DNA of 32,000 bases from Corynebacterium glutamicum ATCC 13032 (GCF_000011325.1 NC_003450.3:2340001-2372000), one strand, 5' to 3'. Shown: positions 2,239 to 29,087, counted from the first letter of the stretch. Numbers and translations are program-made. Notes: generated by a model from the sequence alone, not told the origin.

Positions 2239-2252
2239 GACGTCGAAAAGCG
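2239..2252 (+). repeat. Copy of the RCGTCGAAAAGCR motif (GACGTCGAAAAGCG)
   Basis: Exact 11-mer at 2241-2251 in the lipB-lipA spacer, 54 nt upstream of the lipA GTG. Confidence 0.9.
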
Positions 2253-2304
2253 TTTAAGCTTTCCCTAAAAATATCACTAACTCGAAAGATGTAAGGTTGC
2301 ATTT

Positions 2305-3351
2305 GTGACTATCGCACCTGAAGGACGACGACTGCTACGCGTCGAAGCTCGAAACTCAGAAACCCCGATTGAGACGAAGCCTCGATGGATTAGAAACCAG
2401 GTCAAAAACGGACCTGAGTATCAGGATATGAAGGAACGTGTCGCTGGCGCATCACTACACACTGTGTGTCAGGAGGCTGGCTGTCCTAATATCCATGAGT
2501 GTTGGGAATCCCGTGAGGCAACCTTCCTCATTGGTGGCGCCAACTGCTCTCGCCGCTGTGATTTCTGCATGATCAACTCGGCTCGCCCTGAGCCACTCGA
2601 CCGCGGTGAGCCACTGCGTGTCGCTGAGTCTGTTCGTGAGATGCAGCTGAATTACTCCACCATCACCGGTGTTACCCGTGATGATCTGGATGATGAAGGC
2701 GCATGGCTGTACTCAGAAGTGGTTCGTAAGATCCACGAGCTGAACCCACACACCGGTGTGGAAAACCTGGTGCCTGATTTCTCCGGCAAGAAGGATCTGC
2801 TGCAGGAAGTTTTTGAATCCCGCCCAGAGGTTTTCGCTCACAACGTGGAAACTGTGCCACGTATTTTCAAGCGCATTCGCCCAGCATTCCGCTACGAGCG
2901 TTCACTTGATGTGATCCGTCAGGCTCGCGATTTCGGTCTGGTGACCAAGTCCAACCTGATTTTGGGCATGGGTGAAACCAAGGAAGAAATCACCGAGGCG
3001 CTGCAGGATCTGCACGACGCTGGCTGTGACATCATCACCATCACCCAGTACCTGCGTCCTGGTCCTTTGTTCCACCCCATCGAGCGTTGGGTGAAGCCTG
3101 AGGAGTTCCTCGAGCACGCTGATGCTGCAAAGGAAATGGGCTTCGCTGCTGTTATGTCCGGCCCATTGGTTCGTTCCTCTTACCGTGCAGGCCGTCTGTA
3201 CGCGCAGGCCATGGAGTTCCGTGGCGAGGAAATCCCAGCACACCTCGCGCACCTGAAGGATACTTCCGGAGGATCCACCGCCCAGGAAGCATCTACACTT
3301 CTGGAGCGTTACGGTGCTTCCGAAGACACCCCAGTGGTGTCCTTCAACTAA
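2305..3351 (+). CDS. lipA: Lipoyl synthase (radical SAM)
   Basis: 348-aa ORF with a GTG start. It carries the auxiliary cluster motif [12 protein letters not shown], the radical-SAM CxxxCxxC motif (CSRRCDFC) and a C-terminal RSSY motif. Confidence 0.95.
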
Positions 3352-3365
3352 GCCCGAAGTTTTTT

Positions 3366-3400
3366 AACCGCCGCATTCGATCACCAAATGTGGCGGTTTT
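3366..3400 (+). terminator. Rho-independent terminator after lipA
   Basis: AACCGCCGCAT (3366-3376) pairs with ATGTGGCGGTT (3388-3398) with one G-U pair, followed by TTTT. Confidence 0.8.
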
Positions 3401-3413
3401 GCGTCGAAAAGCG
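3401..3413 (+). repeat. Copy of the RCGTCGAAAAGCR motif (GCGTCGAAAAGCG)
   Basis: Exact 11-mer at 3402-3412. It directly abuts the U-tract of the lipA terminator and lies 68 nt upstream of the next start codon. Confidence 0.9.
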
Positions 3414-3479
3414 TGCTCTTTCTACACCTCTTTGAGGTTCATTTTCGCGGTTTCCTCACAATCGCCTATTGTTAAGTAC

Positions 3480-4262
3480 ATGGCAGACGCGAAAAAGCAG
3501 GCGGATAAAGCCGCCAAGAAGCAGGTAAGAGCAGCCAAGAAGGCACAGCGCAAGGAGACTCGCTCACAAATGTGGCAGGTCTTCAACATGCAACGCAAGC
3601 AGGATAAGGCTCTTATTCCGCTTCTGTTGCTCGCTATTCTTGGTATCCCGCTGGTCCTTTTCCTCATCGGTTTGATTTGGGGTGGTCAGTGGTGGATGCT
3701 TCCGATCGGCATTGCTGCAGGTGTTGTAGCTGCAATGTTTATTTTCACCCGTCGCGTTGAGCGTGACGTGTACAAGCGCGCCGAAGGTCAGCAGGGTGCT
3801 GCTGGTTGGGCTGTGGAGAACCTCCGCTCTGGCGTGGGCATGACCTGGCGCACCAAGACCGCTGTTGCAGTGACCACTCAGATGGATGCAGTGCACCGCG
3901 TCATTGGTCTGTGTGGTGTTGTGCTGGTCGGCGAGGGCTCCCCTCACCGCCTGAAGCCAATGCTTGCGCAGCAAAAGAAGCGCCTGAACCGCGTGGCACC
4001 TGGTGTTCCAGTGTATGAAATCATCACGGGCAACGGCGAAGGCCAGACCCCTATCGCGAAGCTGCAGCGTGAACTGGTCAAGCTGCCTCGCAACTACAAG
4101 AAGAACGACGTCGCTGCCCTGGCCGCTCGCATTGAGGCTATGGACAATGTCGGAAACGCTCCTGGCGGATCTTTGCCTAAGGGTCCATTGCCAAAGGGCG
4201 CAAGCATGTCCGGTATGAACCGCCGCGCTCGCCGACAGGCTGAACGCAAGGGCGAGGCTTAA
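3480..4262 (+). CDS. DUF4191-type membrane protein (Lys-rich N-terminus, two TM helices)
   Basis: The ORF track gives 3390-4262. The ATG at 3480 (MADAKKQADKAAKKQVRAAKKAQRKE...) gives 260 aa. Two adjacent hydrophobic helices follow (LIPLLLLAILGIPLVLFLIGLIW, WMLPIGIAAGVVAAMFIF). From memory, the position downstream of lipA matches the mycobacterial Rv2219 neighbourhood. Confidence 0.8.
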   Translation: MADAKKQADKAAKKQVRAAKKAQRKETRSQMWQVFNMQRKQDKALIPLLLLAILGIPLVLFLIGLIWGGQWWMLPIGIAAGVVAAMFIFTRRVERDVYKRAEGQQGAAGWAVENLRSGVGMTWRTKTAVAVTTQMDAVHRVIGLCGVVLVGEGSPHRLKPMLAQQKKRLNRVAPGVPVYEIITGNGEGQTPIAKLQRELVKLPRNYKKNDVAALAARIEAMDNVGNAPGGSLPKGPLPKGASMSGMNRRARRQAERKGEA

Positions 4263-4303
4263 AGCCTTTTCGCTTTCGCGTCGGCGCCGAAGTTTTTTAA
4301 AAG

Positions 4304-4337
4304 CCGCACTTCACCAACTTGGGTGTGGTGCGGTTTT
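4304..4337 (+). terminator. Rho-independent terminator
   Basis: CCGCACTTCACC pairs with GGTGTGGTGCGG (2-nt internal mismatch), followed by TTTTT. Confidence 0.75.
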
Positions 4338-4431
4338 TGCGTGCTCTGGTTTAGGGACTGGTTTTGGGAACGTGCCCAGTTCCACATCAAATAACGCTGA
4401 GGTCGTACTTAATCCATGAGATCATGAATGG

Positions 4432-6051
4432 GTGAGCTTCCTTGTAGAAAATCAATTACTCGCGTTGGTTGTCATCATGACGGTCGGACTATTGCTCGGC
4501 CGCATCAAAATTTTCGGGTTCCGTCTCGGCGTCGCCGCTGTACTGTTTGTAGGTCTAGCGCTATCCACCATTGAGCCGGATATTTCCGTCCCATCCCTCA
4601 TTTACGTGGTTGGACTGTCGCTTTTTGTCTACACGATCGGTCTGGAAGCCGGCCCTGGATTCTTCACCTCCATGAAAACCACTGGTCTGCGCAACAACGC
4701 ACTGACCTTGGGCGCCATCATCGCCACCACGGCACTCGCATGGGCACTCATCACAGTTTTGAACATCGATGCCGCCTCCGGCGCCGGCATGCTCACCGGC
4801 GCGCTCACCAACACCCCAGCCATGGCCGCAGTTGTTGACGCACTTCCTTCGCTTATCGACGACACCGGCCAGCTTCACCTCATCGCCGAGCTGCCCGTCG
4901 TCGCATATTCCTTGGCATACCCCCTCGGTGTGCTCATCGTTATTCTCTCCATCGCCATCTTCAGCTCTGTGTTCAAAGTCGACCACAACAAAGAAGCCGA
5001 AGAAGCGGGCGTTGCGGTCCAGGAACTCAAAGGCCGTCGCATCCGCGTCACCGTCGCTGATCTTCCAGCCCTGGAGAACATCCCAGAGCTGCTCAACCTC
5101 CACGTCATTGTGTCCCGAGTGGAACGAGACGGTGAGCAATTCATCCCGCTTTATGGCGAACACGCACGCATCGGCGATGTCTTAACAGTGGTGGGTGCCG
5201 ATGAAGAACTCAACCGCGCGGAAAAAGCCATCGGTGAACTCATTGACGGCGACCCCTACAGCAATGTGGAACTTGATTACCGACGCATCTTCGTCTCAAA
5301 CACAGCAGTCGTGGGCACTCCCCTATCCAAGCTCCAGCCACTGTTTAAAGACATGCTGATCACCCGCATCAGGCGCGGCGACACAGATTTGGTGGCCTCC
5401 TCCGACATGACTTTGCAGCTCGGTGACCGTGTCCGCGTTGTCGCACCAGCAGAAAAACTCCGCGAAGCAACCCAATTGCTCGGCGATTCCTACAAGAAAC
5501 TCTCCGATTTCAACCTGCTCCCACTCGCTGCCGGCCTCATGATCGGTGTGCTTGTCGGCATGGTGGAGTTCCCACTACCAGGTGGAAGCTCCCTGAAACT
5601 GGGTAACGCAGGTGGACCGCTAGTTGTTGCGCTGCTGCTCGGCATGATCAATCGCACAGGCAAGTTCGTCTGGCAAATCCCCTACGGAGCAAACCTTGCC
5701 CTTCGCCAACTGGGCATCACACTATTTTTGGCTGCCATCGGTACCTCAGCGGGCGCAGGATTTCGATCAGCGATCAGCGACCCCCAATCACTCACCATCA
5801 TCGGCTTCGGTGCGCTGCTCACTTTGTTCATCTCCATCACGGTGCTGTTCGTTGGCCACAAACTGATGAAAATCCCCTTCGGTGAAACCGCTGGCATCCT
5901 CGCCGGTACGCAAACCCACCCTGCTGTGCTGAGTTATGTGTCAGATGCCTCCCGCAACGAGCTCCCTGCCATGGGTTATACCTCTGTGTATCCGCTGGCG
6001 ATGATCGCAAAGATCCTGGCCGCCCAAACGTTGTTGTTCCTACTTATCTAG
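4432..6051 (+). CDS. sucE: AAE-family (YidE/YbjL, aspartate:alanine-exchanger family) transporter with two central TrkA-C/RCK-C domains; position matches the C. glutamicum succinate exporter
   Basis: 539 aa with a GTG start. Hydrophobic N- and C-terminal halves flank two soluble repeats (RIRVTVADLP...IGDVLTVVGADEEL and RRIFVSNTAVVG...LGDRVRVVAPAEKL). The gene name is recalled from the locus (cg2425/NCgl2130) and was not verified. Confidence 0.8.
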   Translation: MSFLVENQLLALVVIMTVGLLLGRIKIFGFRLGVAAVLFVGLALSTIEPDISVPSLIYVVGLSLFVYTIGLEAGPGFFTSMKTTGLRNNALTLGAIIATTALAWALITVLNIDAASGAGMLTGALTNTPAMAAVVDALPSLIDDTGQLHLIAELPVVAYSLAYPLGVLIVILSIAIFSSVFKVDHNKEAEEAGVAVQELKGRRIRVTVADLPALENIPELLNLHVIVSRVERDGEQFIPLYGEHARIGDVLTVVGADEELNRAEKAIGELIDGDPYSNVELDYRRIFVSNTAVVGTPLSKLQPLFKDMLITRIRRGDTDLVASSDMTLQLGDRVRVVAPAEKLREATQLLGDSYKKLSDFNLLPLAAGLMIGVLVGMVEFPLPGGSSLKLGNAGGPLVVALLLGMINRTGKFVWQIPYGANLALRQLGITLFLAAIGTSAGAGFRSAISDPQSLTIIGFGALLTLFISITVLFVGHKLMKIPFGETAGILAGTQTHPAVLSYVSDASRNELPAMGYTSVYPLAMIAKILAAQTLLFLLI

Positions 6052-6056
6052 CATTG

Positions 6057-6099
6057 ACCCCTTAAGCGCAGAAGGCGATTTAAGGGGTTGGGTTTTCCC
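6057..6099 (+). terminator. Terminator-like hairpin after the transporter gene
   Basis: ACCCCTTAA (6057-6065) pairs with TTAAGGGGT (6080-6088), followed by TGGGTTTT. Confidence 0.5.
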
Positions 6100-6276: not shown

Positions 6277-7918
6277 GACGGCGAATTCAATCGGTGGATG
6301 CACCAACTACGATTTTTTCATATACCTGCGTCGCGCTTTTAAAACCATGCATTTTCCGCGGCCGGTAATTCAGCAGATCCTGTGCCCGCTGAACTTCTTC
6401 GTCACTTACTTTAGCAAAATTAGTGCCCTTCGGGAAAAAATCCCTGACCAATCCATTCGTATTCTCATTCGACCCACGCTGCCACGGCGAATGAGGATCA
6501 CAGAAAAACACCGGACACTTGGTCACCACGCTAAACCGCGCATGCTCTGCCATCTCCACACCCTGATCCCACGTCAAACTCCGACGCAACGCCTGCGGCA
6601 AATCACCCATCATCTCCACCAACGCATCCGTCACAGTCGACGCCTCATGATTAACCCCCAACCGCTTAATCAACGTCAACCGGCTCGTGCGCTCCACCAA
6701 CGTCACCAACGCTGTCGCTTGGTTTTCACCACCAATTACTAAATCGCCCTCCCAGTGCCCAGGCACAGCACGATCAGCAACTTCTGCTGGGCGTTGACTA
6801 ATCAACGCACCCTCCACCCACGGCTTACCTCTCGATGGCAACTTCGACTGCGGTTTACGTCCCTTCCGACCGGTACGAAGAAATTTCTCCACCTTCAATT
6901 CATCACGCAACGCCCCTTTACCTTGAACATATAACGCCTGGTAAATAGTTTCATGACTAATCTGCATAGAGCTATCGTTAGCATGCTCGGTGGCTAAAAG
7001 ACCAGAAATCTGCTCCGGAGATAATTTATTATTCAACGCCTCGACCACCACAGCCCGAAGCCTACGATTGGCATCAAGTTTCGGTGTTTTCGGACGCGCT
7101 AGTTTCCTGATCGCACCTTCATAGGAGTCGCGTGCACGATAACGTCCATCATCATCTTGACCACGTCGAAGTTCCCTGGAAATTGTTTGCCGACACCGAC
7201 CCAGGCGTCGACCGATTTCTGCTGCACTGACCCCGGTGTCATGGAAACGTTGGATCATCATTTTCTCTTCTAACGATAATCGTGTGCCTTGTCCTACGAC
7301 TTTGATTTCATCAGCAAATAACGGCACTACACACGACATATAAGAAAAGCGTAATGATGGTGGTGGAGCAAGATGAAGTAAGGCCCCACACACCTGTGCT
7401 GGCAACCCCAACGCAGATAACTCGTCAAACAGTGTTGTGTAGTCCTCACGCAACACTTGATGGAGTGTGCGTGGCCCATAATAAGGGCCCATCACCGGGG
7501 CGTGGATGAATTCAGCTGCTCGCTTGCCGGTGCGCAAGGTGGCTGCGCGTTGGCGAAGCTTGTCTGGGCCTTGTTTGCGCCATAGGGATATATTGGCCCG
7601 AGTCATGCCGACATACTCGCCGATTTCTCGGGGTAGGCATCCTTTCTCTAGCATGCTGGCTGCAATCTCAAGTTTCTCGGCGGTGTCAAAAGCATTGCCA
7701 CCTCGCGGGCCGCGGGTCAGTTTCACCCCGGCGGCCTTCGCCCACTTTCGCCCGGTGAATTCACTGACCCCGACCGCTGTAGACGCAGCAAGACCTGACA
7801 TACCTTGATTGATCATGTCGAGGAAAGCCGTACGGCTTTCCTCTGGGATTGTTCTACGAATGCCCACTTCGCACCCTTCGGGTTGCTCGTGGTGCATTCA
7901 CCCCCTGAACCCGCCGAC
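6277..7918 (-). mobile_element. IS30-family insertion sequence (ISCg2-like), about 1.64 kb
   Basis: Imperfect terminal inverted repeats match 22 of 29 positions by hand alignment: GACGGCGAATTCAATCGGTGGATGCACCA (6277-6305) against the reverse complement of 7890-7918 (GTCGGCGGGTTCAGGGGGTGAATGCACCA). A single DDE transposase ORF fills the element. Ends are uncertain by about 5 bp. Confidence 0.85.
6287..7897 (-). CDS. IS30-family DDE transposase (536-aa ORF; true start may be an internal Met)
   Basis: The C-terminal half carries IS30-type catalytic-core signatures (HWEGDLV, LTWDQGVEM, FCDPHSPWQRGSNENTNGLVRDFFPKG). The N-terminal part has HTH-like segments. The ATG lies inside the right IR and the TGA inside the left IR. 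Confidence 0.88.
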   Translation of the reverse strand: MHHEQPEGCEVGIRRTIPEESRTAFLDMINQGMSGLAASTAVGVSEFTGRKWAKAAGVKLTRGPRGGNAFDTAEKLEIAASMLEKGCLPREIGEYVGMTRANISLWRKQGPDKLRQRAATLRTGKRAAEFIHAPVMGPYYGPRTLHQVLREDYTTLFDELSALGLPAQVCGALLHLAPPPSLRFSYMSCVVPLFADEIKVVGQGTRLSLEEKMMIQRFHDTGVSAAEIGRRLGRCRQTISRELRRGQDDDGRYRARDSYEGAIRKLARPKTPKLDANRRLRAVVVEALNNKLSPEQISGLLATEHANDSSMQISHETIYQALYVQGKGALRDELKVEKFLRTGRKGRKPQSKLPSRGKPWVEGALISQRPAEVADRAVPGHWEGDLVIGGENQATALVTLVERTSRLTLIKRLGVNHEASTVTDALVEMMGDLPQALRRSLTWDQGVEMAEHARFSVVTKCPVFFCDPHSPWQRGSNENTNGLVRDFFPKGTNFAKVSDEEVQRAQDLLNYRPRKMHGFKSATQVYEKIVVGASTD

Positions 7919-8024
7919 TAATTGGAGCCAATACTCGATTAGGATCAGCGATTCAGCTCTGTGCGGGGACGAAAATTTGCAACTCTCGCTTTGGCTAGCT
8001 AGATCAACCCCAACCAAGCACGAA

Positions 8025-8054: not shown

Positions 8055-8075
8055 ATAAATTTCACTCAAGACAAA

Positions 8076-8549: not shown

Positions 8550-8603
8550 TGTTACAATCAAATCCAAACATGTAGAGGGCGGATACTGCAGTCAAAAGGC
8601 GTT

Positions 8604-8623
8604 GCTTTTCGACGTCGCAAAGC
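8604..8623. promoter_or_regulatory. 20-bp near-perfect palindrome GCTTTTCGAC|GTCGCAAAGC built from two inverted copies of the recurrent motif
   Basis: 9 of 10 positions are symmetric around a GACGTC centre. It lies in the divergent RDD/glnA intergenic region, 55 nt from the RDD start and 207 nt from the glnA start. Confidence 0.6.
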
Positions 8624-10263: not shown

Positions 10264-10285
10264 TTCACTTAGCTAGCCGATAGCG

Positions 10286-10331
10286 GAAACCCCCTGAAAT
10301 TCTTCATTGAATTTCAGGGGGTTTCTTTTTT
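10286..10331 (+). terminator. Rho-independent terminator of glnA
   Basis: A perfect 16-bp stem, GAAACCCCCTGAAATT paired with AATTTCAGGGGGTTTC, followed by TTTTTT. Confidence 0.92.
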
Positions 10332-10821: not shown

Positions 10822-10867
10822 AAAAAAGCCACCCTCAATCCGAACAACATCGGATCGAAAGTGGCTT
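10822..10867 (-). terminator. Rho-independent terminator of the cupin/Nudix operon
   Basis: The minus strand reads AAGCCAC..ATCCGA-TGTTGT-TCGGAT..GTGGCTTTTTTG, a nested stem followed by a U-tract. Confidence 0.7.
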
Positions 10868-10892: not shown

Positions 10893-10906
10893 GACGTCGA
10901 AAAGCA
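10893..10906 (+). repeat. Copy of the RCGTCGAAAAGCR motif (GACGTCGAAAAGCA)
   Basis: Exact 11-mer at 10895-10905, 5 nt beyond the cupin stop codon, between that stop and its terminator. Confidence 0.9.
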
Positions 10907-11923: not shown

Positions 11924-12832
11924 ATGGCCTTCAACAAAGCGTACGATGCACTTCGCGCCCCTCAAATCACCCTCGGACTCATGACACCAAACGGCCCTGA
12001 ACTAGGGCGCAGTGAAATGGTTCCAACCGAAAATAGCATCGAACTAGCCATACAAGCAGAAGCTCAAGGATTCAGAGGCATGTGGGTTCGAGACGTTCCA
12101 CTCGCAGTTCCTCAAGGAATCACTGTTACCGATAAACAGGCTACGTATTTAGATGATCCATTCTTAATGCTCGGTGCGATGGCCTCTGTGACCTCTACAA
12201 TCGCGCTGGGCACTGCAGCGACCGTGCTTCCACTCAGACATCCGCTACATGTGGCGAAATCCGCGCTCACCCTTGATCGACTCAGCCACGGACGTTTCGT
12301 TTTAGGCATCGGCTCTGGCGACAGGCCTGAAGAATTCGAGATTTTTGGCAAAAGCTTAGACAATCGACGCGCTGATATTCAGTCTGGGTGGGCAATTTTG
12401 CGTGCAGCTTTGTCGCCGGATCCTGCGATGCGGGCCGACCTTGAATTTGCGCCAACCACGCCACCTGAAGCTCAGATCCCCATGATCGCTGTAGGTTCTG
12501 CCCGACAAACAGTGCAATGGATCGCCCGAAACGCCGACGGATGGGCAACCTACTACCGCCCCGCTGAAGCTCAAGTCGGACGCCTCGATCTCTGGGACAA
12601 AGCCCGTGGTGGCACCCGCCCCTTGTTGATTTCCTCCATGGGGCTCAACCTCACCGAAGGAAACACCCACAAAGAAATCACTCTGGGCGTAGAGGTAGGC
12701 AGCCAGGAACTCATCGAACACCTCCACCGCCTTTCGGAACTTGGCATCGACCACGTCATCTTCAACATCCAGCGCCGACCAGCAAGCGAAGTACTGACCC
12801 AGATTTACGAAGAAGTGCTCCCCCACCTCTAA
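11924..12832 (+). CDS. Luciferase-like (LLM-class) flavin-dependent oxidoreductase
   Basis: 302 aa with TIM-barrel LLM features (FRGMWVRD, LDRLSHGRFVLGIGSGDRPEEF). Confidence 0.75.
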   Translation: MAFNKAYDALRAPQITLGLMTPNGPELGRSEMVPTENSIELAIQAEAQGFRGMWVRDVPLAVPQGITVTDKQATYLDDPFLMLGAMASVTSTIALGTAATVLPLRHPLHVAKSALTLDRLSHGRFVLGIGSGDRPEEFEIFGKSLDNRRADIQSGWAILRAALSPDPAMRADLEFAPTTPPEAQIPMIAVGSARQTVQWIARNADGWATYYRPAEAQVGRLDLWDKARGGTRPLLISSMGLNLTEGNTHKEITLGVEVGSQELIEHLHRLSELGIDHVIFNIQRRPASEVLTQIYEEVLPHL

Positions 12833-12833
12833 A

Positions 12834-13229: not shown

Positions 13230-13340
13230 CCAGAGCATTTTTCGCACGACTCGGACCGGGGAATCAAATATTCTGGGGTCGCAGACACTTCCATTTGGCG
13301 CGATCTGTGTCGTTCAAGGGACTCGCTCGCACCGACAAGA

Positions 13341-13407
13341 GGGAAACCAGACAGGCGTGACAAAACTTCAGGTTTTTAGCCAATCTTGTCACGCCTGTCT
13401 GGTTCCC
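13341..13407. repeat. Long inverted repeat (22-bp stem, 22-nt loop)
   Basis: GGGAAACCAGACAGGCGTGACAA (13341-13363) against TTGTCACGCCTGTCTGGTTCCC (13386-13407). The arms are complementary except for one extra A. No flanking U-tract on either strand. Confidence 0.85.
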
Positions 13408-13544
13408 ATCAGTTCAGCGGAAATTCGACCTCCAACTCCGAAAAACTTGCCCTCCCAGAATCGCTTCTAACGGCTTGACTGTGACCCCTCCATGTCAAAC
13501 ACCCGTTCTAAGAATTGGAGGCCTTAAAACGCCACTCAATGCGA

Positions 13545-15521: not shown

Positions 15522-16847
15522 GTGAAGAACAATGATCAACGGCCTTCGCCAAGACCGCATCCCAGAGAGAAAGTAACTACCCGCGCCCTCATAGTTTGGG
15601 CAGCAGCCTGTCTTGTGTATATGGCAGCCATTACCAGCCGCACCAGCTTTGGTGTGGCTGGAGTGGAGGCCATTGATCGTTTTCAGGTAGACGCCACACG
15701 CATTGCAGTATTCACTTCTGTTCAGGTTGGTGTGTACGCGTTTGCTCAGATTCCGATGGGCATTTTGATCGATAAGTTTGGTCCTCGGAAGCTCCTTGCC
15801 ATTGGTGCTTTGGTGATGGGTATCGGCCAGCTCATTTTGGGCTTTACGGATAGCTATTCCATCGCGATTATTGCCCGCGTGTTTATCGGCGCCGGCGATG
15901 CATCGATCTTCCTTTCGGTTATGCGCATCCTGCCGTTTTGGTTCCCACTGAAGCACACCCCTATTTTCACGCAGTTAACTACCTGCCTTGGCCAGTTGGG
16001 CCAGTTCTTTTCTGCGGTGCCTTTCATGGCGTTGTTGGGTGCGCAGGGTTGGCCTGTGGCGTTTGTCAGCCTTGGTTCCGTGGTGGCACTCATTGCGATC
16101 GCAGCGCTGGTGGCCGTTCGGGATACTCCAGATCCTCAGCCAAAACCTGTCGAATCAGCTCAGGAAGCAGATAAACCAAGCCTGCGCGCGAGTTTGAAGT
16201 TGATTGTCCGCAATCCGATTACGTGGCAGGGTTTCTTCATTCACTACGTATTGATGGTGTGGCAGACCGTGTTCTCCATGATGTGGGGCGTCCCGCTGAT
16301 GACTTTGGGCATGGGACTGTCTGCAACGACGGCTGGTTTGGTGTTGAGCATCAACACGCTGTGCATGGTGGTATCGGCGCCAATCATCGGAATAATTTCC
16401 GCACGCCTTGGGTATCGCCGTGACGTGGTCGCCATTGCGCTGTCGTTTGTTCAATCCGCAGTATGGCTGGTGTTCTTGGCCTCCGATGCACCTCGTGGTT
16501 TGATGGCTATCATCTTGGTCAACATCGTCATGGGTCTGACTACTGCGGCTTCTGGTTATGGCTTTGACACCATTCGTGAGCGCCTAGATCGCAAGATTTT
16601 GGCTGCGGGCACGGGACTGGCAAACATGGGTGGATTCTTGTCATCGATGGTTGCAGCGCAGGTTATGGGGTTCCTTCTTGATCACAGCGCGCATGGTAGC
16701 ACCTATACTTGGGTGGACTTCCGTTTTGGTTTCCTTGCGATTCTTGTCACATGGGCCGTCGGAGTCACGGGATTTGTTGTAGCCCGACTCAAGGGTGGAC
16801 CGGGCCGCAGATTACTCGCCCAGATTAGGTCTACCAAGGACTTTTAA
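15522..16847 (+). CDS. MFS transporter (intact copy of a tandem pair)
   Basis: 441 aa with a GTG start and about 12 hydrophobic segments. The MFS loop motif reads GILIDKFGPRKLL. Confidence 0.85.
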   Translation: MKNNDQRPSPRPHPREKVTTRALIVWAAACLVYMAAITSRTSFGVAGVEAIDRFQVDATRIAVFTSVQVGVYAFAQIPMGILIDKFGPRKLLAIGALVMGIGQLILGFTDSYSIAIIARVFIGAGDASIFLSVMRILPFWFPLKHTPIFTQLTTCLGQLGQFFSAVPFMALLGAQGWPVAFVSLGSVVALIAIAALVAVRDTPDPQPKPVESAQEADKPSLRASLKLIVRNPITWQGFFIHYVLMVWQTVFSMMWGVPLMTLGMGLSATTAGLVLSINTLCMVVSAPIIGIISARLGYRRDVVAIALSFVQSAVWLVFLASDAPRGLMAIILVNIVMGLTTAASGYGFDTIRERLDRKILAAGTGLANMGGFLSSMVAAQVMGFLLDHSAHGSTYTWVDFRFGFLAILVTWAVGVTGFVVARLKGGPGRRLLAQIRSTKDF

Positions 16848-16863
16848 AGATCGGGTAAAACCT

Positions 16864-18134
16864 GTGGGCGTTGAAAGGGGCAAGGTCTCTGCCAAGGCAC
16901 TAGTTGTCTGGTTGACGGCAATGTGCGTGTACATCGTGGCCATTGCTGGTCGAACATCATTTGGTGTCGCCGGAGTGCATGCGATCGATCGCTTTGATAT
17001 CGACGCCTCCCGGTTGGCCGTGTTCACTTCTGTTCAGGTTGGAGTCTATGTTCTCGCGCAGATTCCCATGGGCATGCTGGTGGACAGGTTCGACGCCCGG
17101 AAACTCTTGCTGGCTGGCGCTTTAATTTTGGCAGCTGGCCAGCTCATTTTGGGTTTCACTGATTCTTATATGATCGCCATTTTTGCCCGAGTGCTCATCA
17201 GTGTTGGCGATTCTTCTGCATTTTTGTCCGTGATGCGACTGTTGCCCAACTGGTTCCCGATGTCTTGGACACCTGTGTTGCAGCAGCTCACGGGCGCTTT
17301 TGGCTTTGTGGGGCAGTTTTCTCCGCGGTGCCGTTTTTGCACATACTCAACACCTTAGGGTGGACAATTCCTTTCGCATCCCTTGGCGCGGTAGGCATCA
17401 TCGTGGCGATCGCGGCGGCCATCTTGGTGCGCGACGCTCCTGCAAGCAGTGAGCCTGTGAGGCGTGGGGAGGCGTCGATAAGCATCGCTTTTAGGCTTAA
17501 ATCCGTGCTGACCAGCCTTTATTGCTGGCAGGGCGTGTTTAATCACTGGGTGAGCATGGGACCTGTGATGGTATTTTTGCTACTGTGGGGCACGCCGACG
17601 CTGACGCTGGGGCTGGACATAAGCAGCGGCGAAGTGGGCACGGTTCTAACGATTTTCGCCGTCGCAACCGTGATCACCGGTCGCTTTCCGGCATCGTGTC
17701 GTCGCGGCTAGGGGGCCAGGCGCGGGATGATTGGGTTTGTCACGCCGATGATTCAGGCGGCGTTGTGGATCGTGCTCTTTTTATTCGCTGATCGCCTGTC
17801 CAATCCGCTGGTTTTTGTCAGCGCCATCATGTTCGCGATTTCCTTTAGCTCCCCCGTGGCGAACTTCGGTTTCGATACGATCTGCGAAAAACTCGACCGC
17901 CGCGTCATGGTCGCCGGCACCGGCATGGCCAACATGAGCGCCTACATTTGCGCGATGCTGGCCACACAAATCATCGGATTTTTACTCGACTGGAACGCCG
18001 ACGGCCACGCCTACACCTGGTCGAATTTCCAGGTGGCGTGGCTTGGTCTGGGCGCGGTGTGGCTGGCAGGCATGATCGGGCTTGCAGTCTGCCTCCTGCT
18101 GCAGCGTCGAAAAAATATTGCTTTTCGACGCTAA
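16864..18134 (+). pseudogene. MFS transporter paralog disrupted by three single-nucleotide frameshifts
   Basis: Three ORF-track fragments (16795-17358, 17265-17711, 17727-18134) align colinearly with the upstream MFS protein. The frame changes at the T-run 17317-17320, at about 17680-17684 and at the G5/CC run 17711-17717. An in-frame TAG lies at 17709-17711. Confidence 0.75.
18103..18132. other. Hairpin made of two inverted motif copies (AGCGTCGAAAA / TTTTCGACGCT)
   Basis: 11-bp perfect stem (18103-18113 with 18122-18132) and an 8-nt loop. It overlaps the last codons of the MFS pseudogene and lies 19 nt from the stop of the convergent gene. Confidence 0.8.
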
Positions 18135-25459: not shown

Positions 25460-25509
25460 AGCGGGTGAAAGCCCCATTTCCCGCGTAACATGAGGTGGGC
25501 AAAGACAAC

Positions 25510-25550
25510 ACAGGTTCCCTATGAAAACGGGGAACCTGTTTCACCTACTT
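25510..25550 (+). terminator. Terminator-like hairpin
   Basis: ACAGGTTCCC (25510-25519) pairs with GGGAACCTGT (25530-25539), followed by a weak T-rich tail. Confidence 0.55.
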
Positions 25551-25587
25551 TTTAATCACGCTTCACAATCACATAAGTCTTTAAAGG

Positions 25588-27417
25588 ATGGATACAACAA
25601 TGGGCCAGCATCTAGAAGTGGAAACTAAGTTTTCCGTCAGTGAATCAACTCAGATTCCACAACTTGAGGCTATCGCAGAAGTCGACCACATTGATCGCAC
25701 CGAAATCCACCAACTAAGCGCTGTTTACTTTGACACCGTAGATTTGCGCCTCACCCGCGCAAAAATTACCCTCCGTCGCCGCACCGGTGGAAACGATGCC
25801 GGCTGGCACATTAAGTTCCCCGGAACCATCGGTCGCCGTGAAGTCCAAGCCCCACTTGATGGCGAAGGCGCAACAGAAACCCTCCCTCCACGTGAGCTCT
25901 TGGGACACATCCGAGCGCTGATCCAAGGCCGTGAGCTGACCCCTATCGCCCAGGTGGATAATGAACGCCACATGTCTTACCTCGCGGATGAGGACGGCGC
26001 AGTCATCGCAGAATTCTGCGACGATCATGTATCCACCGTGTCCCACCTTCCAGGTGGCGTGCGCAAGCAGTGGCGTGAGTGGGAATTCGAACTCGCTGAT
26101 GGCACCCTCGCCGAAGAAGCCATCTCAGTACTGCTGCAATCTGCACAGTCAGTCCTGACCGCAGCTGGAGCTTTTGTCTCCAACAGCCCATCCAAACTTG
26201 TTTCGGCGCTGGACGAATCAGTCAACCACGCGCCAAAGCCTCCACAGATGGCGCAGCTGGACAAGAATGACCCAGCACGTGGTGTTCTTGCAGCAATCGC
26301 AGCCAACGCCTCAAAGATCGCCGAATACGATCCTCGAGTACGCGCCGATGAATATGATTCAGTCCACCAGATGCGCGTAGCTACCCGAGAACTACGCAGC
26401 CACCTCCAAACCTTTGAGGGCATCCTCGGCGGCGAAGACTACCTCAACCTGGAAAAGGAACTGAAGGTTCTCGCCAACATCTTGGGTCGCGCACGCGATG
26501 CTGAAGTTGTGGAAGAGCGCCTCAGCAACCTGATTAACACTGAGGTTGGCGACTCCATCGAGGAGGAGACTAAGAAGGAACTGCTTGAAGATCTTGGTGC
26601 AGAATACCGTCGTGAGCATGAGCGAGTAGTTCGTGCGCTGGATAATGATCGCTACACTGATCTTCTTCAGGCACTGGAAAACCTCCTTGTTGATCCACCG
26701 CTGATCACAGAAGTCGAAGAACCCGAAGCTACCGAAGCCCCTGAGTCCGCTGAGACTACCGAGTCCACTGACGTCTCTGAAGCAACCGAAGAAGCAGACG
26801 CAGAAGCTGAGTCTGTCGAAGAAGCTACTGAGCAGGAAGAATCAGCAGACGCGCCTGAATCTGCAGATCTGGACGCTCTCGATGAGGAGTACTCCCCTGG
26901 TTCCCAAGCGCCGGTGGAGGAGCCGAAGGAACCGAAGAAGGTTGATGCTGCTCTCGTACTTCTAGAGCACCTTGATAAGGCGCACGTGAAGCTCGTCAAG
27001 CTGGAAAAGAAGGCTCGCTCACAGTGGGATGATCTCAGCATTCCGATGCTGGAGCGGGAAGAAAACTTCCACAACCTGCGCAAGGCTGCCAAGAAGCTTC
27101 GCTACAGTGCAGAGGCAGTGGGCAAAGCAACCACCGTTGAGACGAAGAAACTGTACAAGGCGTGCAGTGGTTTGCAGTCAGTTCTTGGCGATTACCAAGA
27201 TGCCATTACTTCCCGTAATGAGCTGTTGCGCCGAGCTCAGGTTGCCCGCCGCCAAGGCCGGGATACCTTCGCATACGGAATCCTCTACCAGCACGAACAA
27301 ACCCTGTCGAGGGAATACCTGACTGGTTATTCCGATGCGTTCAAGAGCGTAGAAAAAGCCTATGCAAAGCTGGCTGAAGATACCGCCAAGCGTTCAAAGA
27401 AGAACAAGCGTAAGTAA
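25588..27417 (+). CDS. CYTH-CHAD two-domain protein
   Basis: The N-terminus carries the ExExK motif of triphosphate-tunnel (CYTH) enzymes (LEVETKFSV). The C-terminal half is helical CHAD with an acidic insertion, and the protein ends in a basic tail (KRSKKNKRK). Spacing to AGGA suggests the start may be ATG 25600 rather than 25588. Confidence 0.82.
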   Translation: MDTTMGQHLEVETKFSVSESTQIPQLEAIAEVDHIDRTEIHQLSAVYFDTVDLRLTRAKITLRRRTGGNDAGWHIKFPGTIGRREVQAPLDGEGATETLPPRELLGHIRALIQGRELTPIAQVDNERHMSYLADEDGAVIAEFCDDHVSTVSHLPGGVRKQWREWEFELADGTLAEEAISVLLQSAQSVLTAAGAFVSNSPSKLVSALDESVNHAPKPPQMAQLDKNDPARGVLAAIAANASKIAEYDPRVRADEYDSVHQMRVATRELRSHLQTFEGILGGEDYLNLEKELKVLANILGRARDAEVVEERLSNLINTEVGDSIEEETKKELLEDLGAEYRREHERVVRALDNDRYTDLLQALENLLVDPPLITEVEEPEATEAPESAETTESTDVSEATEEADAEAESVEEATEQEESADAPESADLDALDEEYSPGSQAPVEEPKEPKKVDAALVLLEHLDKAHVKLVKLEKKARSQWDDLSIPMLEREENFHNLRKAAKKLRYSAEAVGKATTVETKKLYKACSGLQSVLGDYQDAITSRNELLRRAQVARRQGRDTFAYGILYQHEQTLSREYLTGYSDAFKSVEKAYAKLAEDTAKRSKKNKRK

Positions 27418-27427
27418 ACGCAGGCAA

Positions 27428-27472
27428 TAAAAAACTGGGGTCGCATCTGAAAGTGTGACCCCAGTTTTTTTT
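27428..27472. terminator. Bidirectional rho-independent terminator
   Basis: AAAAAACTGGGGTC pairs with GACCCCAGTTTTTTTT. It serves the CYTH-CHAD gene (+) and the convergent small ORF (-). Confidence 0.88.
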
Positions 27473-27653
27473 AGTCTTCCTTGTCGTCCCAAATTTCGGC
27501 TGCCTTGGTTCGGGCTGCCGCAATGGAGATGGCGTGATGGGCTTCCTCTTCAGTGTCATATGGGCCCATGCGGGTTTCAAAGCCGGAAACCTTGCCTTGA
27601 AAAACCTTGCCGGTTGCCAGATCGTAGAACCACTTCAAATCTTCTTTAGCCAT
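27471..27653 (-). CDS. Small conserved-looking hypothetical protein (60 aa)
   Basis: The ATG is preceded by GGAG at about 11 nt. The sequence (MAKEDLKWFYDLATGKVFQGKVSGFETRMGPYDTEEEA...) is soluble and not low-complexity. The stop lies in the terminator T-run. Confidence 0.6.
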   Translation of the reverse strand: MAKEDLKWFYDLATGKVFQGKVSGFETRMGPYDTEEEAHHAISIAAARTKAAEIWDDKED

Positions 27654-27791
27654 GTGGGCTCAGCTCCAATCACGAAACAAATCACGGTTTGTAGTGTGTA
27701 GCACCCCACTATAGACCTCAATAAGAACCCGCAACGGCTAGAGTGGGTCTGTTATTTATTTGTGATTTCTATCTGTGGAGGCTTCTCTCAC

Positions 27792-29087
27792 ATGGCCATT
27801 TGGCAGCCAACTCTCACCGGCCCGCACGGCGCACAAGTTGGATCGTCTCCCACTGAACTTCTTGAAGCCTGCGTGGCTTTCCACCGCACTTTCTTTGACG
27901 TCAATCCCAAAGGCGCTGCTACCGCACCGGCAACATGGACGCTTATTGGTGAGCATTCGGATTACGCCGGTGGTGTGGTGCTGGCGGCTAATGCGAATTG
28001 GCGGACTGCGGTTGCCGTCAATAAGAACCGCGACGATGTTGTTAACGTATGCGTTGTGGATGTGGAGGGAGGCGTCGAAAAGCATTCTTTAAGCACTGCG
28101 GACATTGCAGCTCGCGCACACGCCCATATGAAATCCCATGATGTTTTGGGGCGGCAGACTACGCCGCCTCAGCCGGAGGGCGGCGTTGCTGCCCGGTTGG
28201 GCGGGATTGCGTGGACAATGATCCATAAGCAAATGCTTTCGCGTGACACAAAAGGCCTGGATATCACCGTGTTGAGCACCATTCCTGAGGGGGTGGGGCT
28301 GGGTGAAAATTCCGCCATGGATGTGGCGCTCGCATTGGCGCTGTATCGGGAAAATATTGAGGAAGCCCCCACGAAGGCGCGCATTGCGGAGATTTGTTCG
28401 CAGTCCGCATTCATGTTCAGTGAGACTTCAGTGTTGCGTGCGCGGCACACCGTGGCGTTGCGGGGTGAAACTGGACAGATTTCGGTGGTTGATTACGCCG
28501 ATGGTTCGGTCACTCAGGCGCCACATCCGGTGAGTCGTTCCGCTGGTTTGTCGGCATTTGTTGTTGCTGCGCAAACTGAAACTGATCCGAGCATTTACCG
28601 CGAGATCTATGCTCGACATGCGTTTATCGATGAAGCTGCGCGCGCTTTCAGTGTGGAATCTTTGCGGTTGCTTCCCGACGCTTCCACTCGTGTTGTGGAT
28701 TGGTTGCAGGCCGTGATTGAGGTGACTGGTCGAGAGGATCTGCCCTCGATTGAACAAGCCCAGCGCTGGTTGAATCTGTGGGAAAACGAAACCCGGCGCG
28801 CTCAGAGGACAGCCAATGCCCTGCGTTCGAGAAGGCTGAGTGAGTTTTCTGAGCTGCTGATGGAATCCCAAGATGATTTGAGCGACACCTTCGATTTCCC
28901 CCCTGCTGATTTGGCGCTTGCTCGTTTGTGCGTCGAGCGGGGTGCCACAGCTGCTCGGTCCACGTCAGCGCGCGGTGTGATTGCGTTGGTTGATGCCCAT
29001 CATGCGCACAATTTTGCTGCGGATCTCAGCGAGGATGGCTTGTTGGTGGTTCCTCTCGGGCACGGGGACGTCGCGGAACAGGGCTAG
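27792..29087 (+). CDS. Galactokinase-like GHMP-family protein with degenerate catalytic motifs
   Basis: The ATG at 27792 lies about 12 nt after GGAGG. The GalK signature LIGEHSDYAGGVVL is present. GHMP motif II is degenerate (PEGVGLGENSAMDVA). The GIMDQ and GGGFGG regions are not recognisable. Confidence 0.75.
   Translation: MAIWQPTLTGPHGAQVGSSPTELLEACVAFHRTFFDVNPKGAATAPATWTLIGEHSDYAGGVVLAANANWRTAVAVNKNRDDVVNVCVVDVEGGVEKHSLSTADIAARAHAHMKSHDVLGRQTTPPQPEGGVAARLGGIAWTMIHKQMLSRDTKGLDITVLSTIPEGVGLGENSAMDVALALALYRENIEEAPTKARIAEICSQSAFMFSETSVLRARHTVALRGETGQISVVDYADGSVTQAPHPVSRSAGLSAFVVAAQTETDPSIYREIYARHAFIDEAARAFSVESLRLLPDASTRVVDWLQAVIEVTGREDLPSIEQAQRWLNLWENETRRAQRTANALRSRRLSEFSELLMESQDDLSDTFDFPPADLALARLCVERGATAARSTSARGVIALVDAHHAHNFAADLSEDGLLVVPLGHGDVAEQG
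28072..28084 (+). repeat. Copy of the RCGTCGAAAAGCR motif (GCGTCGAAAAGCA), intragenic
   Basis: Exact 11-mer at 28073-28083 inside the GalK-like CDS, where it encodes ..GVEKH.. Confidence 0.9.

What the first reader, a model, noticed from the sequence alone, without database searches (positions are those of the whole stretch)
2239..28084. The 11-mer CGTCGAAAAGC occurs six times in 32 kb, always flanked by purines
Exact copies on the plus strand lie at 2241-2251, 3402-3412, 10895-10905 and 28073-28083. Minus-strand copies (GCTTTTCGACG) lie at 8604-8614 and 18120-18130. A 9-nt partial arm, CGTCGAAAA, lies at 18105-18113. Every copy fits RCGTCGAAAAGCR. A given 11-mer is expected about 64,000/4^11 = 0.015 times on both strands of a window this size, so six copies cannot be chance. 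The sequence is not a low-complexity run. Five of the six copies sit within about 70 nt of a gene boundary:
- the lipB-lipA spacer;
- abutting the lipA terminator U-tract;
- the divergent RDD/glnA region;
- 5 nt after the cupin stop;
- between two convergent stops.
The sixth is inside a CDS. Orientation and position relative to genes are not consistent with a simple promoter-operator regulon. I know no corynebacterial regulator motif that matches: not AmtR, DtxR, GlxR, McbR or RamB, and the LexA SOS box shares only TCGAA. Possible explanations are a dispersed half-site for an uncharacterised DNA- or RNA-binding protein, a very small REP/MITE-like element, a transcript 3'-end or processing signal, or an assembly or engineering artefact.
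Basis: seen in the sequence. Interest (0 to 1): 0.8.

Follow-up and report, generated by a model that had tools for sequence, protein, structure and literature searches.

The report
Hyperabundant Corynebacterium chromosome watermark motif
The repeated 11-letter word is real: it is a local sample of a sharply defined DNA motif, CGTCGANAAGC, that most Corynebacterium chromosomes (but not their phages) carry about once every 3-4 kb, inside genes as well as between them, which most resembles the DNA-uptake signature sequences of Neisseria and Haemophilus and points to an undescribed way these bacteria recognise their own DNA.

Summary
In detail: CGTCGAAAAGC occurs six times in this Corynebacterium glutamicum window, against 0.01 expected, and is present in more than 10 independent assemblies.

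It is one face of a wider motif, CGTCGANAAGC, with ten fixed bases and a free seventh.
- **Density.** C. glutamicum has 14 copies in 48 kb. Eight of nine named species sampled have 1.4-5.7 per 10 kb, and 27 of 34 metagenomic Corynebacterium lineages have it. Expectation is about 0.03 per 10 kb.
- **Sharpness.** Single-mismatch variants are near background.
- **Strands.** Both strands are used equally.
- **Inside genes.** Copies arise by point substitution and codon choice: 20 seen against 0.64 in synonymous shuffles. They fill 29 of 44 peptide sites that can encode the motif.
- **Between genes.** Copies stay conserved while their flanks drift, and in C. glutamicum relatives they form inverted pairs at gene ends.
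- **Mobile DNA.** C. glutamicum phages and a phage-plasmid have about 20-fold fewer.

This rules out chance, artefact, a REP/MITE element, an RNA signal, an operator regulon and Chi/KOPS-type skewed motifs.

The anatomy matches DNA uptake sequences best, and I commit to that reading with confidence 0.4. A self-marker or chromosomal protein site is the main rival. I found no description of the motif in the searchable literature.

The parts
2241..2251 (+). Exact CGTCGAAAAGC in the lipB-lipA spacer (72 nt after lipB, 53 nt before lipA).
   Evidence: It is conserved in C. crudilactis although the spacer is only 80% identical. C. ulcerans has a copy in the same spacer on the opposite strand.
3402..3412 (+). 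Exact copy 3 nt after the lipA terminator hairpin (3366-3398) and its U-tract.
   Evidence: In C. crudilactis this copy reads CGTCGATAAGC, so the only change is at the free position 7.
4851..4861 (-). T-variant CGTCGATAAGC inside the Asp-Al_Ex transporter gene, antisense to the gene. The gene strand reads G-CTT-ATC-GAC-G, encoding L-I-D.
   Evidence: The codons are identical in C. crudilactis and C. efficiens while neighbouring codons differ.
8604..8614 (-). Exact copy in the divergent RDD/glnA region. It is the left half of the 20-bp near-palindrome 8604-8623, whose right half CGTCGCAAAGC has one mismatch. An imperfect partner arm GTCAAAAGGC lies at 8591-8600.
   Evidence: Strain L001 has two substitutions here. 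C. crudilactis has a copy with one base deleted. The fold is not significant, z -0.4.
10895..10905 (+). Exact copy about 4 nt downstream of the cupin gene stop, antisense to that gene and upstream of its terminator hairpin (10826-10867).
   Evidence: It is conserved in C. crudilactis while the flanks diverge. The flank varies among C. glutamicum strains while the motif is invariant.
17473..17483 (+). T-variant CGTCGATAAGC inside a 148-aa MFS-fragment ORF, in the sense orientation.
18105..18130 (.). Inverted pair between convergent gene ends: a 9-nt arm CGTCGAAAA (18105-18113), an 8-nt loop, and the exact copy on the minus strand (18120-18130).
   Evidence: This is the only copy in the window that forms a significant hairpin: -15.3 kcal/mol, z -5.3.
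28073..28083 (+). Exact copy inside galK, in the sense orientation, read as GGC-GTC-GAA-AAG-CAT (G-V-E-K-H).
29981..29991 (-). T-variant CGTCGATAAGC inside the RNB (RNase II-like) gene, in the sense orientation.

Best explanation
CGTCGAAAAGC is the preferred form of a genus-wide, sharply defined DNA-level motif, CGTCGANAAGC. It marks Corynebacterium chromosomal DNA about once per 3-4 kb.

I propose that it works like a DNA uptake sequence (DUS/USS). A sequence-specific component of a DNA-uptake or recombination route prefers fragments that carry the word. Near-matches that mutate to the exact word are then preferentially re-imported and fixed (molecular drive), wherever the protein code or an intergenic spacer tolerates it. 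Inverted pairs at gene ends double as hairpins.

**Shown here:** abundance, sharpness, strand symmetry, origin by point mutation and codon choice, conservation, species-to-species differences in the base used at position 7, and depletion from phages.

**Inferred, not shown:** that the recognising machinery is DNA uptake, and that any Corynebacterium is naturally competent.
For: **Abundance.**
- The window has 6 exact copies plus 3 T-variants, against 0.01 and 0.08 expected.
- C. glutamicum has 14 copies in 48.3 kb when the flanks are included.
- Unbiased 21-kb lipA loci hold: C. efficiens 8, C. ulcerans 7, C. pelargi 7, C. sanguinis 12, C. renale 6, C. crudilactis 5, C. occultum 3. Expectation is 0.04-0.11 per locus.
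- Of 34 dereplicated metagenomic Corynebacterium lineages, 27 carry 118 copies in 416 kb.
- Controls: non-Corynebacterium genome loci have 3 unseeded variants in 634 kb, and viral loci have 4 in 1.0 Mb.

**Sharpness.** The consensus occurs 36 times in 116 kb, while each single-mismatch variant at the fixed positions occurs 0-4 times. The result is similar in 416 kb.

**Strand symmetry.** The named-species loci give 28 plus-strand and 29 minus-strand copies.

**Copies inside genes.**
- Synonymous-codon shuffles give 0.64 against 20 observed.
- 24 of 39 L-[FLIV]-D-x sites and 5 of 5 V-[ED]-K-x sites that could encode the motif do encode it. In motif-free C. halotolerans the figure is 0 of 5.
- Codon alignments show substitutions, not insertions, often at poorly conserved residues. 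This is as reported for uptake sequences (PMC2817400).

**Copies between genes.** Three of four keep all ten fixed bases between C. glutamicum and C. crudilactis, although flank identity is 80%. The one change falls on the free base.

**Inverted pairs.** Pairs with variable loops (arms overlapping by 2 nt up to a 9-nt loop) lie just after stop codons in C. callunae and three unnamed species. This is the configuration described for USS/DUS terminators (PMC1852404).

**Mobile DNA.** Phages BFK20 and P1201 and the phage-plasmid pCGR1 hold 2 copies in 142 kb, against 41 expected at the chromosomal rate.

**Comparable density.** The density is close to that of the Actinobacillus pleuropneumoniae USS, 765 per genome.
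Against: - No Corynebacterium is known to be naturally transformable. This rests on my own knowledge, and a literature search found nothing.
- No receptor or competence gene was examined here.
- The density is 3-fold below that of Neisseria and Haemophilus.
- Near-saturation of compatible codon sites looks stronger than the roughly 2-fold tripeptide effect reported for USS. That could instead mean direct selection on each site.
- 7 of 34 lineages, plus C. halotolerans, lack the motif entirely, with no replacement motif evident.
- Inverted pairs are rare outside the C. glutamicum clade.
- Only 48 kb of C. glutamicum and one syntenic region per species were sampled.
- Every anatomical feature except terminator pairing would also fit a non-uptake self-marker.
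Confidence: 0.4

Rival explanations
1. The motif is the binding or recognition site of a chromosomal DNA-processing or organising protein and is selected site by site as a 'self' mark. One possibility is a Chi-like attenuator of a helicase-nuclease (AdnAB/RecBCD). Others are a signal that lets a condensin or defence system (such as MksBEFG) tell chromosome from plasmid or phage, or a nucleoid-structuring site.
For: - The density of about one per 3.5 kb is close to that of E. coli Chi (my own knowledge).
- The motif is very sharp.
- Compatible sites are nearly saturated, and intergenic copies are conserved, which suggests selection on individual sites.
- The motif is 20-fold depleted in phages and a phage-plasmid.
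- HIP1 in cyanobacteria is a precedent for a selected, hyperabundant motif with a proposed role in chromosome structure (PMC5861425).
Against: - There is no replication-strand skew (28:29:7 in C. glutamicum). Known Chi and KOPS motifs are skewed (my own knowledge).
- Eleven nucleotides is long for a Chi site.
- No protein candidate has been identified.
- About a fifth of the lineages do without the motif, which is odd for an essential chromosome function.
Confidence: 0.3
2. The motif is a by-product of a sequence-specific mutational or repair bias, such as very-short-patch-like correction or modification-linked repair. That bias would convert near-cognate sequences into the motif, and the motif itself would have no function.
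For: - Copies arise by point substitution.
- The motif is lineage-specific in presence and absence.
- It is absent from phages that spend little evolutionary time under the host's repair systems.
Against: - All ten fixed positions are equally sharp. Known repair biases correct one mismatch type at one position and give only modest over-representation (my own knowledge).
- Copies are conserved in diverged intergenic DNA.
- For HIP1, conservation was taken as evidence for selection over biased repair.
Confidence: 0.1
3. The motif is a very small REP/MITE-like mobile palindrome, or a terminator or transcript 3'-end RNA signal. These are two of the first reader's options.
For: - Five of the six exact copies in the window are intergenic and near gene ends.
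- The hairpin at 18105-18130 is significant.
- Perfect inverted pairs follow stop codons in C. callunae and relatives.
- Several copies directly follow a terminator U-tract.
Against: - 9 of 14 C. glutamicum copies, and most copies in other species, are inside genes, in both orientations.
- Copies inside genes arise by substitution without indels.
- Loops of the inverted pairs vary in length and sequence, so the pairs are two juxtaposed words rather than one element.
- Five of the six window copies have no significant fold.
- There is no Rfam match.
Confidence: 0.05
4. The motif is a half-site of a transcription-factor operator, defining a regulon that includes glnA, lipA and other genes.
For: A 20-bp near-palindrome lies 215 nt upstream of glnA.
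Against: - Copies lie downstream of genes and inside genes.
- There would be hundreds per genome by extrapolation.
- Exact conservation of 10 bases, with no degenerate variants, is unlike operator sets.
- The glnA-upstream palindrome is disrupted in C. crudilactis and in one C. glutamicum strain.
Confidence: 0.03
5. The repeat is due to chance, to composition or codon usage, or to an assembly or engineering artefact.
For: None found.
Against: - Dinucleotide shuffles, Markov expectation and synonymous-codon shuffles all fall 30- to 600-fold short of the observed counts.
- The copies are present in 10 or more independent assemblies and in many species.
Confidence: 0.01

Closest known systems
Neisseriaceae DNA uptake sequence (DUS, GCCGTCTGAA, 12-mer AT-DUS, and its dialects)
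   Same: - It is a short exact word in hundreds to thousands of copies, on both strands, in genes and between them.
- Inverted pairs with variable spacers occur at gene ends.
- Lineages differ in the favoured form. Here position 7 is A in the C. glutamicum clade, C in C. efficiens, and mixed elsewhere.
- It is scarce in foreign DNA.
- It arises by point mutation.
   Different: - The host is a Gram-positive actinobacterium with no known competence.
- The density is about 3 per 10 kb, against about 8.6 (1,892 per genome).
- The motif has a fully free central base.
- No ComP-like receptor is known.
- Uptake has not been tested.
Pasteurellaceae uptake signal sequence (USS, e.g. AAGTGCGGT in H. influenzae; the A. 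pleuropneumoniae type)
   Same: - Copies are mostly intragenic and sit in preferred reading frames that encode common tripeptides, at poorly conserved residues (PMC2817400).
- The fraction in ORFs is similar: 9 of 14 (64%) here, against 65% in H. influenzae.
- The density is close to that of A. pleuropneumoniae (765 per genome).
- USS pairs occur in terminators (PMC1852404).
   Different: - Compatible codon sites are occupied to a higher degree here (29 of 44).
- No AT-rich flanking segments were seen. Instead there is a G-rich 5' flank and 'not C' after the motif.
- Function is untested.
HIP1 (GCGATCGC) of cyanobacteria
   Same: - It is over-represented 15- to 300-fold.
- It occurs in genes and between them.
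- It is conserved between genomes.
- It has no gene-level function, and its mechanism has been unknown for decades (PMC5861425).
   Different: HIP1 is an 8-bp palindrome that overlaps methylation sites. The motif here is an asymmetric 11-mer with ten fixed bases.
Chi (RecBCD/AddAB) and KOPS/SRS (FtsK/SpoIIIE) polar motifs
   Same: They are sharply defined, occur at kilobase-scale density in chromosomal DNA, and are rare in phages.
   Different: Those motifs are 5-8 nt long and strongly co-oriented with replication (my own knowledge). This one is 11 nt and strand-symmetric.
REP/BIME/REPIN elements and the TRIT-type repeated terminators of mycobacteria
   Same: In the C. glutamicum clade, intergenic inverted pairs form hairpins after stop codons.
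   Different: - The motif occurs inside genes through codon choice.
- Single copies predominate.
- Loop sequence and length are not conserved.
- There is no evidence of insertion.

Membership tests
DNA uptake sequences (DUS/USS) | A short (9-12 nt), highly conserved word present hundreds to thousands of times per genome. | tested here: met
   There are 14 copies in 48.3 kb of C. glutamicum, which extrapolates to about 950 per genome (Poisson range roughly 500-1,600). Most other species have 1.4-5.7 per 10 kb. The whole-genome count itself could not be made.
DNA uptake sequences (DUS/USS) | Both orientations are about equally frequent, with no replication polarity. | tested here: met
   The named-species loci give 28 plus and 29 minus copies, and C. 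glutamicum gives 7:7. The mild 107:139 split in metagenomic loci fits the local gene orientation combined with the antisense coding preference.
DNA uptake sequences (DUS/USS) | Copies inside genes are created by substitution and codon choice in favoured reading frames, often at poorly conserved residues. | tested here: met
DNA uptake sequences (DUS/USS) | Closely spaced inverted copies form terminator-like hairpins at gene ends. | tested here: inconclusive
   This is common in C. callunae and three unnamed species, but those loci were selected by the search pattern. There is one pair in the window, and only 2 pairs in 416 kb of other lineages.
DNA uptake sequences (DUS/USS) | Depleted in phage, plasmid or recently acquired DNA. 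| tested here: met
   There are 2 copies in 142 kb of C. glutamicum phage and phage-plasmid DNA, against 41 expected.
DNA uptake sequences (DUS/USS) | The host is naturally competent, and uptake or transformation is enhanced by the motif. | not testable with these tools
   No report was found. An uptake competition assay is needed.
DNA uptake sequences (DUS/USS) | A cognate receptor in the uptake machinery (such as the ComP minor pilin). | not tested
   No competence or pilus genes lie in the sequences available here.
REP/REPIN/MITE | Extragenic location and spread by insertion. | tested here: not met
   Most copies are intragenic, and codon alignments show substitutions without indels.
REP/REPIN/MITE | A conserved imperfect palindrome as the repeating unit. 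| tested here: not met
   Only one of six window copies folds significantly, and pair loops vary in length and sequence.
Chi / KOPS-type polar motifs | Strong co-orientation with replication. | tested here: not met
   The window lies on a replichore whose plus strand is C-rich, yet the copies split evenly.
Transcription-factor operator regulon | Promoter-proximal, degenerate sites that are conserved upstream of orthologous genes. | tested here: not met
   Sites lie in coding sequence and downstream of genes. They are all-or-none in sequence. The glnA-upstream copy is not conserved.
Known RNA families (Rfam) | A match to a curated covariance model. | tested here: not met
   Only RNase P RNA (30919-31326) matched in the window.
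HIP1-like hyperabundant motif | Over-representation of 15-fold or more in genes and spacers, with conservation between genomes. | tested here: met
   HIP1's palindromy, however, is not shared.

The most novel reading that the evidence does not exclude
Corynebacterium possesses a DNA uptake sequence. This includes the industrial workhorse C. glutamicum and the C. diphtheriae/ulcerans group. It would mean these bacteria are cryptically naturally competent, with a preference for their own DNA. That would be the first uptake sequence outside Neisseriaceae and Pasteurellaceae, and the first in a Gram-positive or actinobacterial lineage.
Probability: 0.35. Interest if true: 0.9.

Novelty: new member of a known kind. 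Interest (0 to 1): 0.8.

Why it matters
**What would follow if the motif is real and functional.**
- A ten-base word kept at near-saturation across a whole genus implies a strong, still unidentified sequence-specific process acting on the DNA of C. glutamicum and of pathogens such as C. ulcerans and C. diphtheriae.
- If that process is DNA uptake, it would explain recombination in these species. It would also give a simple handle for genetic engineering: add the word to donor DNA.
- If it is a self-marker for a nuclease, condensin or defence system, it would explain how plasmids and phages are told apart from the chromosome. It would also matter for vector design.

**Practical consequences that hold either way.**
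- The motif is a species-level DNA signature, useful for binning and for spotting horizontally acquired regions.
- It biases codon choice at L-[FLIV]-D and V-[ED]-K sites.

Tried and rejected
- **Genome-collection scan.** It returned 101 stretches, mostly chance hairpins in unrelated taxa. C. glutamicum itself did not appear, although the window contains a match, so that genome is evidently masked or absent.
- **Rfam.** Nothing was found at the motif.
- **Hairpin or terminator idea.** I first noted CTTT 3-8 nt downstream in 5 of 6 copies, which suggested a degenerate second arm. Folding showed only one significant hairpin, so I dropped this as the general explanation.
- **ECF-sigma -10 (CGTC) idea.** No consistent -35 element or spacing was seen by eye.
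- **Mycobacterial topoisomerase I site.** CGCTT(C/G) overlaps the reverse complement only partly and explains only 5-6 of the 10 fixed bases. This comparison comes from memory and was not pursued.
- **Transcription-strand asymmetry.** Inside genes there are 24 antisense and 5 sense copies. This looked like an RNA-level clue but is explained by the number of compatible peptide sites: 39 against 5, both nearly saturated.
- **Plasmid search.** A search with the IS30 transposase found no Corynebacterium plasmids. I used pCGR1, BFK20 and P1201 by accession instead.
- **Outgroup genera.** Mycobacterium, Rhodococcus and others could not be reached. All 120 listed LipA homologues and all 80 metagenomic loci were Corynebacterium-like.
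- **Literature.** Seven searches found the 11-mer only inside primers of three C. glutamicum papers. They found no description of the motif, of a Corynebacterium uptake sequence, or of a Corynebacterium Chi site.


Full report
**1.

CGTCGAAAAGC occurs exactly six times in the window: at 2241+, 3402+, 8604-, 10895+, 18120- and 28073+. Dinucleotide-preserving shuffles give a mean of 0.01 and never more than one copy. It is the single outlier among all k-mers of length 9-12 in the window. Repeat finding shows no longer shared element around the copies.

The window is Corynebacterium glutamicum, ATCC 13032 type, covering the lipB-lipA-glnA-glnE region at about 2.3 Mb. Its LipA and GlnE proteins are identical to those of many C. 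glutamicum assemblies, and locus L002 is identical to the first 13 kb of the window.

The copies are present in 10-14 independent assemblies. Their flanks vary between strains while the 11-mer does not, except for two substitutions in one strain at the 8604 copy. Artefact and chance are therefore excluded.

**2.

One-mismatch searches showed three copies of CGTCGATAAGC in the window. LipA-centred 21-kb loci from other species, chosen without reference to the motif, showed the same word with any base at position 7.

| Species | Copies per 21-kb locus | Notes |
|---|---|---|
| C. efficiens | 8 | six are CGTCGACAAGC, the top 11-mer of that locus |
| C. crudilactis | 5 | |
| C. ulcerans | 7 | |
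| C. pelargi | 7 | |
| C. sanguinis | 12 | |
| C. renale | 6 | |
| C. occultum | 3 | |
| C. halotolerans | 0 | |

First-order Markov expectations are 0.04-0.11 per locus.

In C. glutamicum the 16 kb flanking the window add five more copies. That makes 14 in 48.3 kb, or 2.9 per 10 kb, and extrapolates to about 950 per genome, of which about 540 would be the A form.

A metagenome scan with a LipA alignment returned 80 Corynebacterium-like loci (1.12 Mb, 246 copies). After dereplication, 27 of 34 lineages carry 118 copies in 416 kb, and 7 lineages carry none in 125 kb. That is a bimodal pattern. The motif-free lineages are scattered among the motif-rich ones by LipA similarity.

Controls are low. 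Variants not selected by my search patterns occur 3 times in 634 kb of non-Corynebacterium genome loci and 4 times in 1.0 Mb of viral contigs, against 15 in 93 kb of Corynebacterium loci.

**3. Anatomy of the motif**

- **Sharpness.** The ten fixed positions are all-or-none. There are 36 consensus copies in 116 kb, against 0-4 for every single-mismatch variant. The picture is the same in 416 kb.
- **Position 7.** It is free (A13, C11, T9, G3). A dominates the intergenic copies of the C. glutamicum clade.
- **Flanks.** The base after the motif is almost never C, and the 5' flank is G-rich.
- **Strands.** Both are used equally: 28:29 over the named species and 7:7 in C. glutamicum. This holds although the window's plus strand is clearly the C-rich, lagging-type strand. 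That argues against Chi- or KOPS-type polar motifs.

**4. Copies inside genes are made by codon choice, not by insertion**

In C. glutamicum 9 of 14 copies are intragenic, and in the other species most are.

Most are antisense to the gene, in the frame G-CTT-NTC-GAC-G. This encodes Leu-(Phe/Leu/Ile/Val)-Asp followed by a residue whose codon starts with G. The sense copies read GTC-GAN-AAG, encoding Val-(Glu/Asp)-Lys.

Shuffling synonymous codons within each locus, which keeps proteins and codon usage, gives 0.64 copies where 20 are observed, with a maximum of 3 in 300 shuffles.

Codon alignments of orthologues show that motif copies differ from non-motif orthologues by substitutions only. Two examples:
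- The peptide LVDA is TTG GTT GAT GCT in C. glutamicum and CTT GTC GAC GCC in C. efficiens.
- MVDA in four species is LVDA encoded by the motif in C. ulcerans and C. pelargi.

Several copies sit in variable protein segments.

The antisense excess (24 against 5) reflects how many peptide sites can host each orientation. Of the sites that could encode the motif synonymously, 24 of 39 antisense-type and 5 of 5 sense-type sites actually do. In motif-free C. halotolerans the figure is 0 of 5. The motif is thus close to saturation wherever the protein allows it.

**5. Intergenic copies are constrained**

Between C. glutamicum and C. crudilactis the four motif-bearing spacers are 80% identical outside the motif. 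Three of the four copies nevertheless keep all ten fixed bases, where about 0.11 per site is expected. The only change in those three is A to T at the free position. The fourth copy, upstream of glnA, has lost one T in C. crudilactis.

The lipB-lipA spacer carries a copy on the plus strand in C. glutamicum and C. crudilactis, and on the minus strand in C. ulcerans. That is hard to explain by descent of one element.

**6. Hairpins are a clade-specific extra, not the essence**

Twelve were from Corynebacterium: C. callunae five times, three unnamed species, and one likely chance hit. Only those loci held further copies.

There the motif often forms perfect inverted pairs just after stop codons. 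Their spacing ranges from a 2-nt overlap of the arms to a 9-nt loop of unrelated sequence, and G-runs and C-runs flank them. These are two juxtaposed words, not one repeated element.

In the window only the 18105-18130 pair folds significantly (z -5.3). The other five copies do not. Pairs are rare in the other lineages, with 2 in 416 kb. Rfam has nothing at these sites.

**7. Mobile DNA lacks the motif**

The C. glutamicum phage-plasmid pCGR1 (49 kb), phage BFK20 (43 kb) and 50 kb of phage P1201 have host-like G+C content. Together they hold 2 copies in 142 kb, where the chromosomal rate predicts 41 (P about 1e-15). The IS30-family element inserted at 6287-7897 has none.

**8. What it is**

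The evidence describes a DNA-level, strand-symmetric, sharply specified word. It accumulates by point mutation wherever it is tolerated, is held against drift, differs in preferred form between lineages, marks chromosomal but not phage DNA, and in one clade pairs up at gene ends.

This is, feature for feature, the anatomy of the DNA uptake sequences of Neisseriaceae and Pasteurellaceae:
- 9-12-nt words, with 765-1,892 copies per genome and 35-65% in ORFs;
- favoured reading frames and poorly conserved residues;
- absence from genes without homologues in related genomes;
- pairs inside terminators (PMC2817400; PMC1852404).

I therefore commit to 'it works like an uptake sequence, accumulated by uptake-biased recombination' as the most likely mechanism, with confidence 0.4.

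The steps not shown are the decisive ones. No Corynebacterium is known to be competent (and my own knowledge). No receptor was examined.

The near-saturation of compatible sites, and the total absence of the motif from about a fifth of the lineages, fit at least as well with a site-by-site selected self-marker. Examples would be an unskewed Chi-like nuclease attenuator, or a signal read by a condensin or defence system. A nucleoid-structure role like that proposed for HIP1 (PMC5861425) would fit too. That rival gets 0.3. A pure repair-bias by-product gets 0.1, because all ten positions are equally sharp and the copies are conserved.

The REP/MITE, RNA-signal, operator-regulon and artefact readings are rejected for the reasons given in sections 4-6.

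**9. Novelty and limits**

Seven full-text searches found the 11-mer only inside primers of three C. glutamicum papers. They found no description of the motif, of a Corynebacterium uptake sequence, or of a Corynebacterium Chi site. Surveys of stem-loop families and of terminators with uptake signals do not cover C. glutamicum. Subscription literature was not searchable.

I file the finding as a new member of a known kind, the hyperabundant genomic watermark motifs of the DUS/USS type. It occurs in a phylum where none is known.

The limits are these:
- only 48 kb of C. glutamicum was seen;
- each species was sampled in one syntenic region;
- no outgroup genera could be reached;
- the C. callunae-type loci were selected by the search pattern;
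- there are no functional data.

Noticed in passing
window 6287-7897 (-): An IS30-family (ISCg2-like) transposase ORF sits between the Asp-Al_Ex transporter gene and the RDD gene. It is present in the window, L002 and L006 and absent from seven other strains. Strain L010 has a different rve-type IS in the same spacer, so this spacer is an IS insertion hot spot. The IS contains no motif copy.
   Followed up: partly
window 30919-31326 (-): Bacterial RNase P RNA class A (Rfam RF00010, 280 bits). It was the only Rfam hit in the window.
   Followed up: no
window 258-317: 15-nt tandem repeats (AGGAAGAGCCCAAGA-like) lie in the linker of the E2 lipoyl-domain protein. The E2 product length varies from 670 to 696 aa among C. 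glutamicum strains.
   Followed up: no
window 13339-13410, 10285-10326 and 10826-10867: A 25-nt-arm inverted repeat lies between the convergent RidA and ThrC ends. Two strong 18-bp terminator-like hairpins flank the small ORF downstream of glnA.
   Followed up: no
window 15522-17711: An MFS transporter appears split into three ORFs (441 aa, 164 aa and an overlapping 148 aa). This is possibly a frameshifted pseudogene. One T-variant motif copy lies in the last fragment.
   Followed up: no
L274, L280, L323, L279 (metagenomic Corynebacterium lineage, LipA nearest C. canis): These lineages have no, or almost no, CGTCGANAAGC, but they carry GCGTCGATA four times per 21 kb, usually preceded by GCG/GCGG. 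This may be a different dialect or a decayed remnant.
   Followed up: partly
L205 4120-7701 (Corynebacterium sp. S18M_Sa_4): Seven motif copies lie within 3.6 kb. Two of them have 35-nt flanks that resemble each other, so a longer repeat family may embed the motif there.
   Followed up: no
L236 19622 (C. crudilactis) versus window 12831-12833: C. crudilactis has a motif-bearing 36-nt spacer between the luciferase-like gene and the RidA gene. In C. glutamicum those two genes abut and RidA is 12 residues longer, so the N-terminal coding region appears to have been remodelled around a motif copy.
   Followed up: partly
literature: The widely used Bxb1 attB site (from Mycobacterium smegmatis groEL1) contains GCTTGTCGACG, the C-variant of the motif. 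This is a single instance and allows no inference, but it is a reason to count the motif in mycobacteria.
   Followed up: no
Genome-contig scan: The window's own inverted pair (18105-18130) matches the scan pattern, yet no C. glutamicum record was returned. The species appears to be masked in, or missing from, that collection.
   Followed up: no
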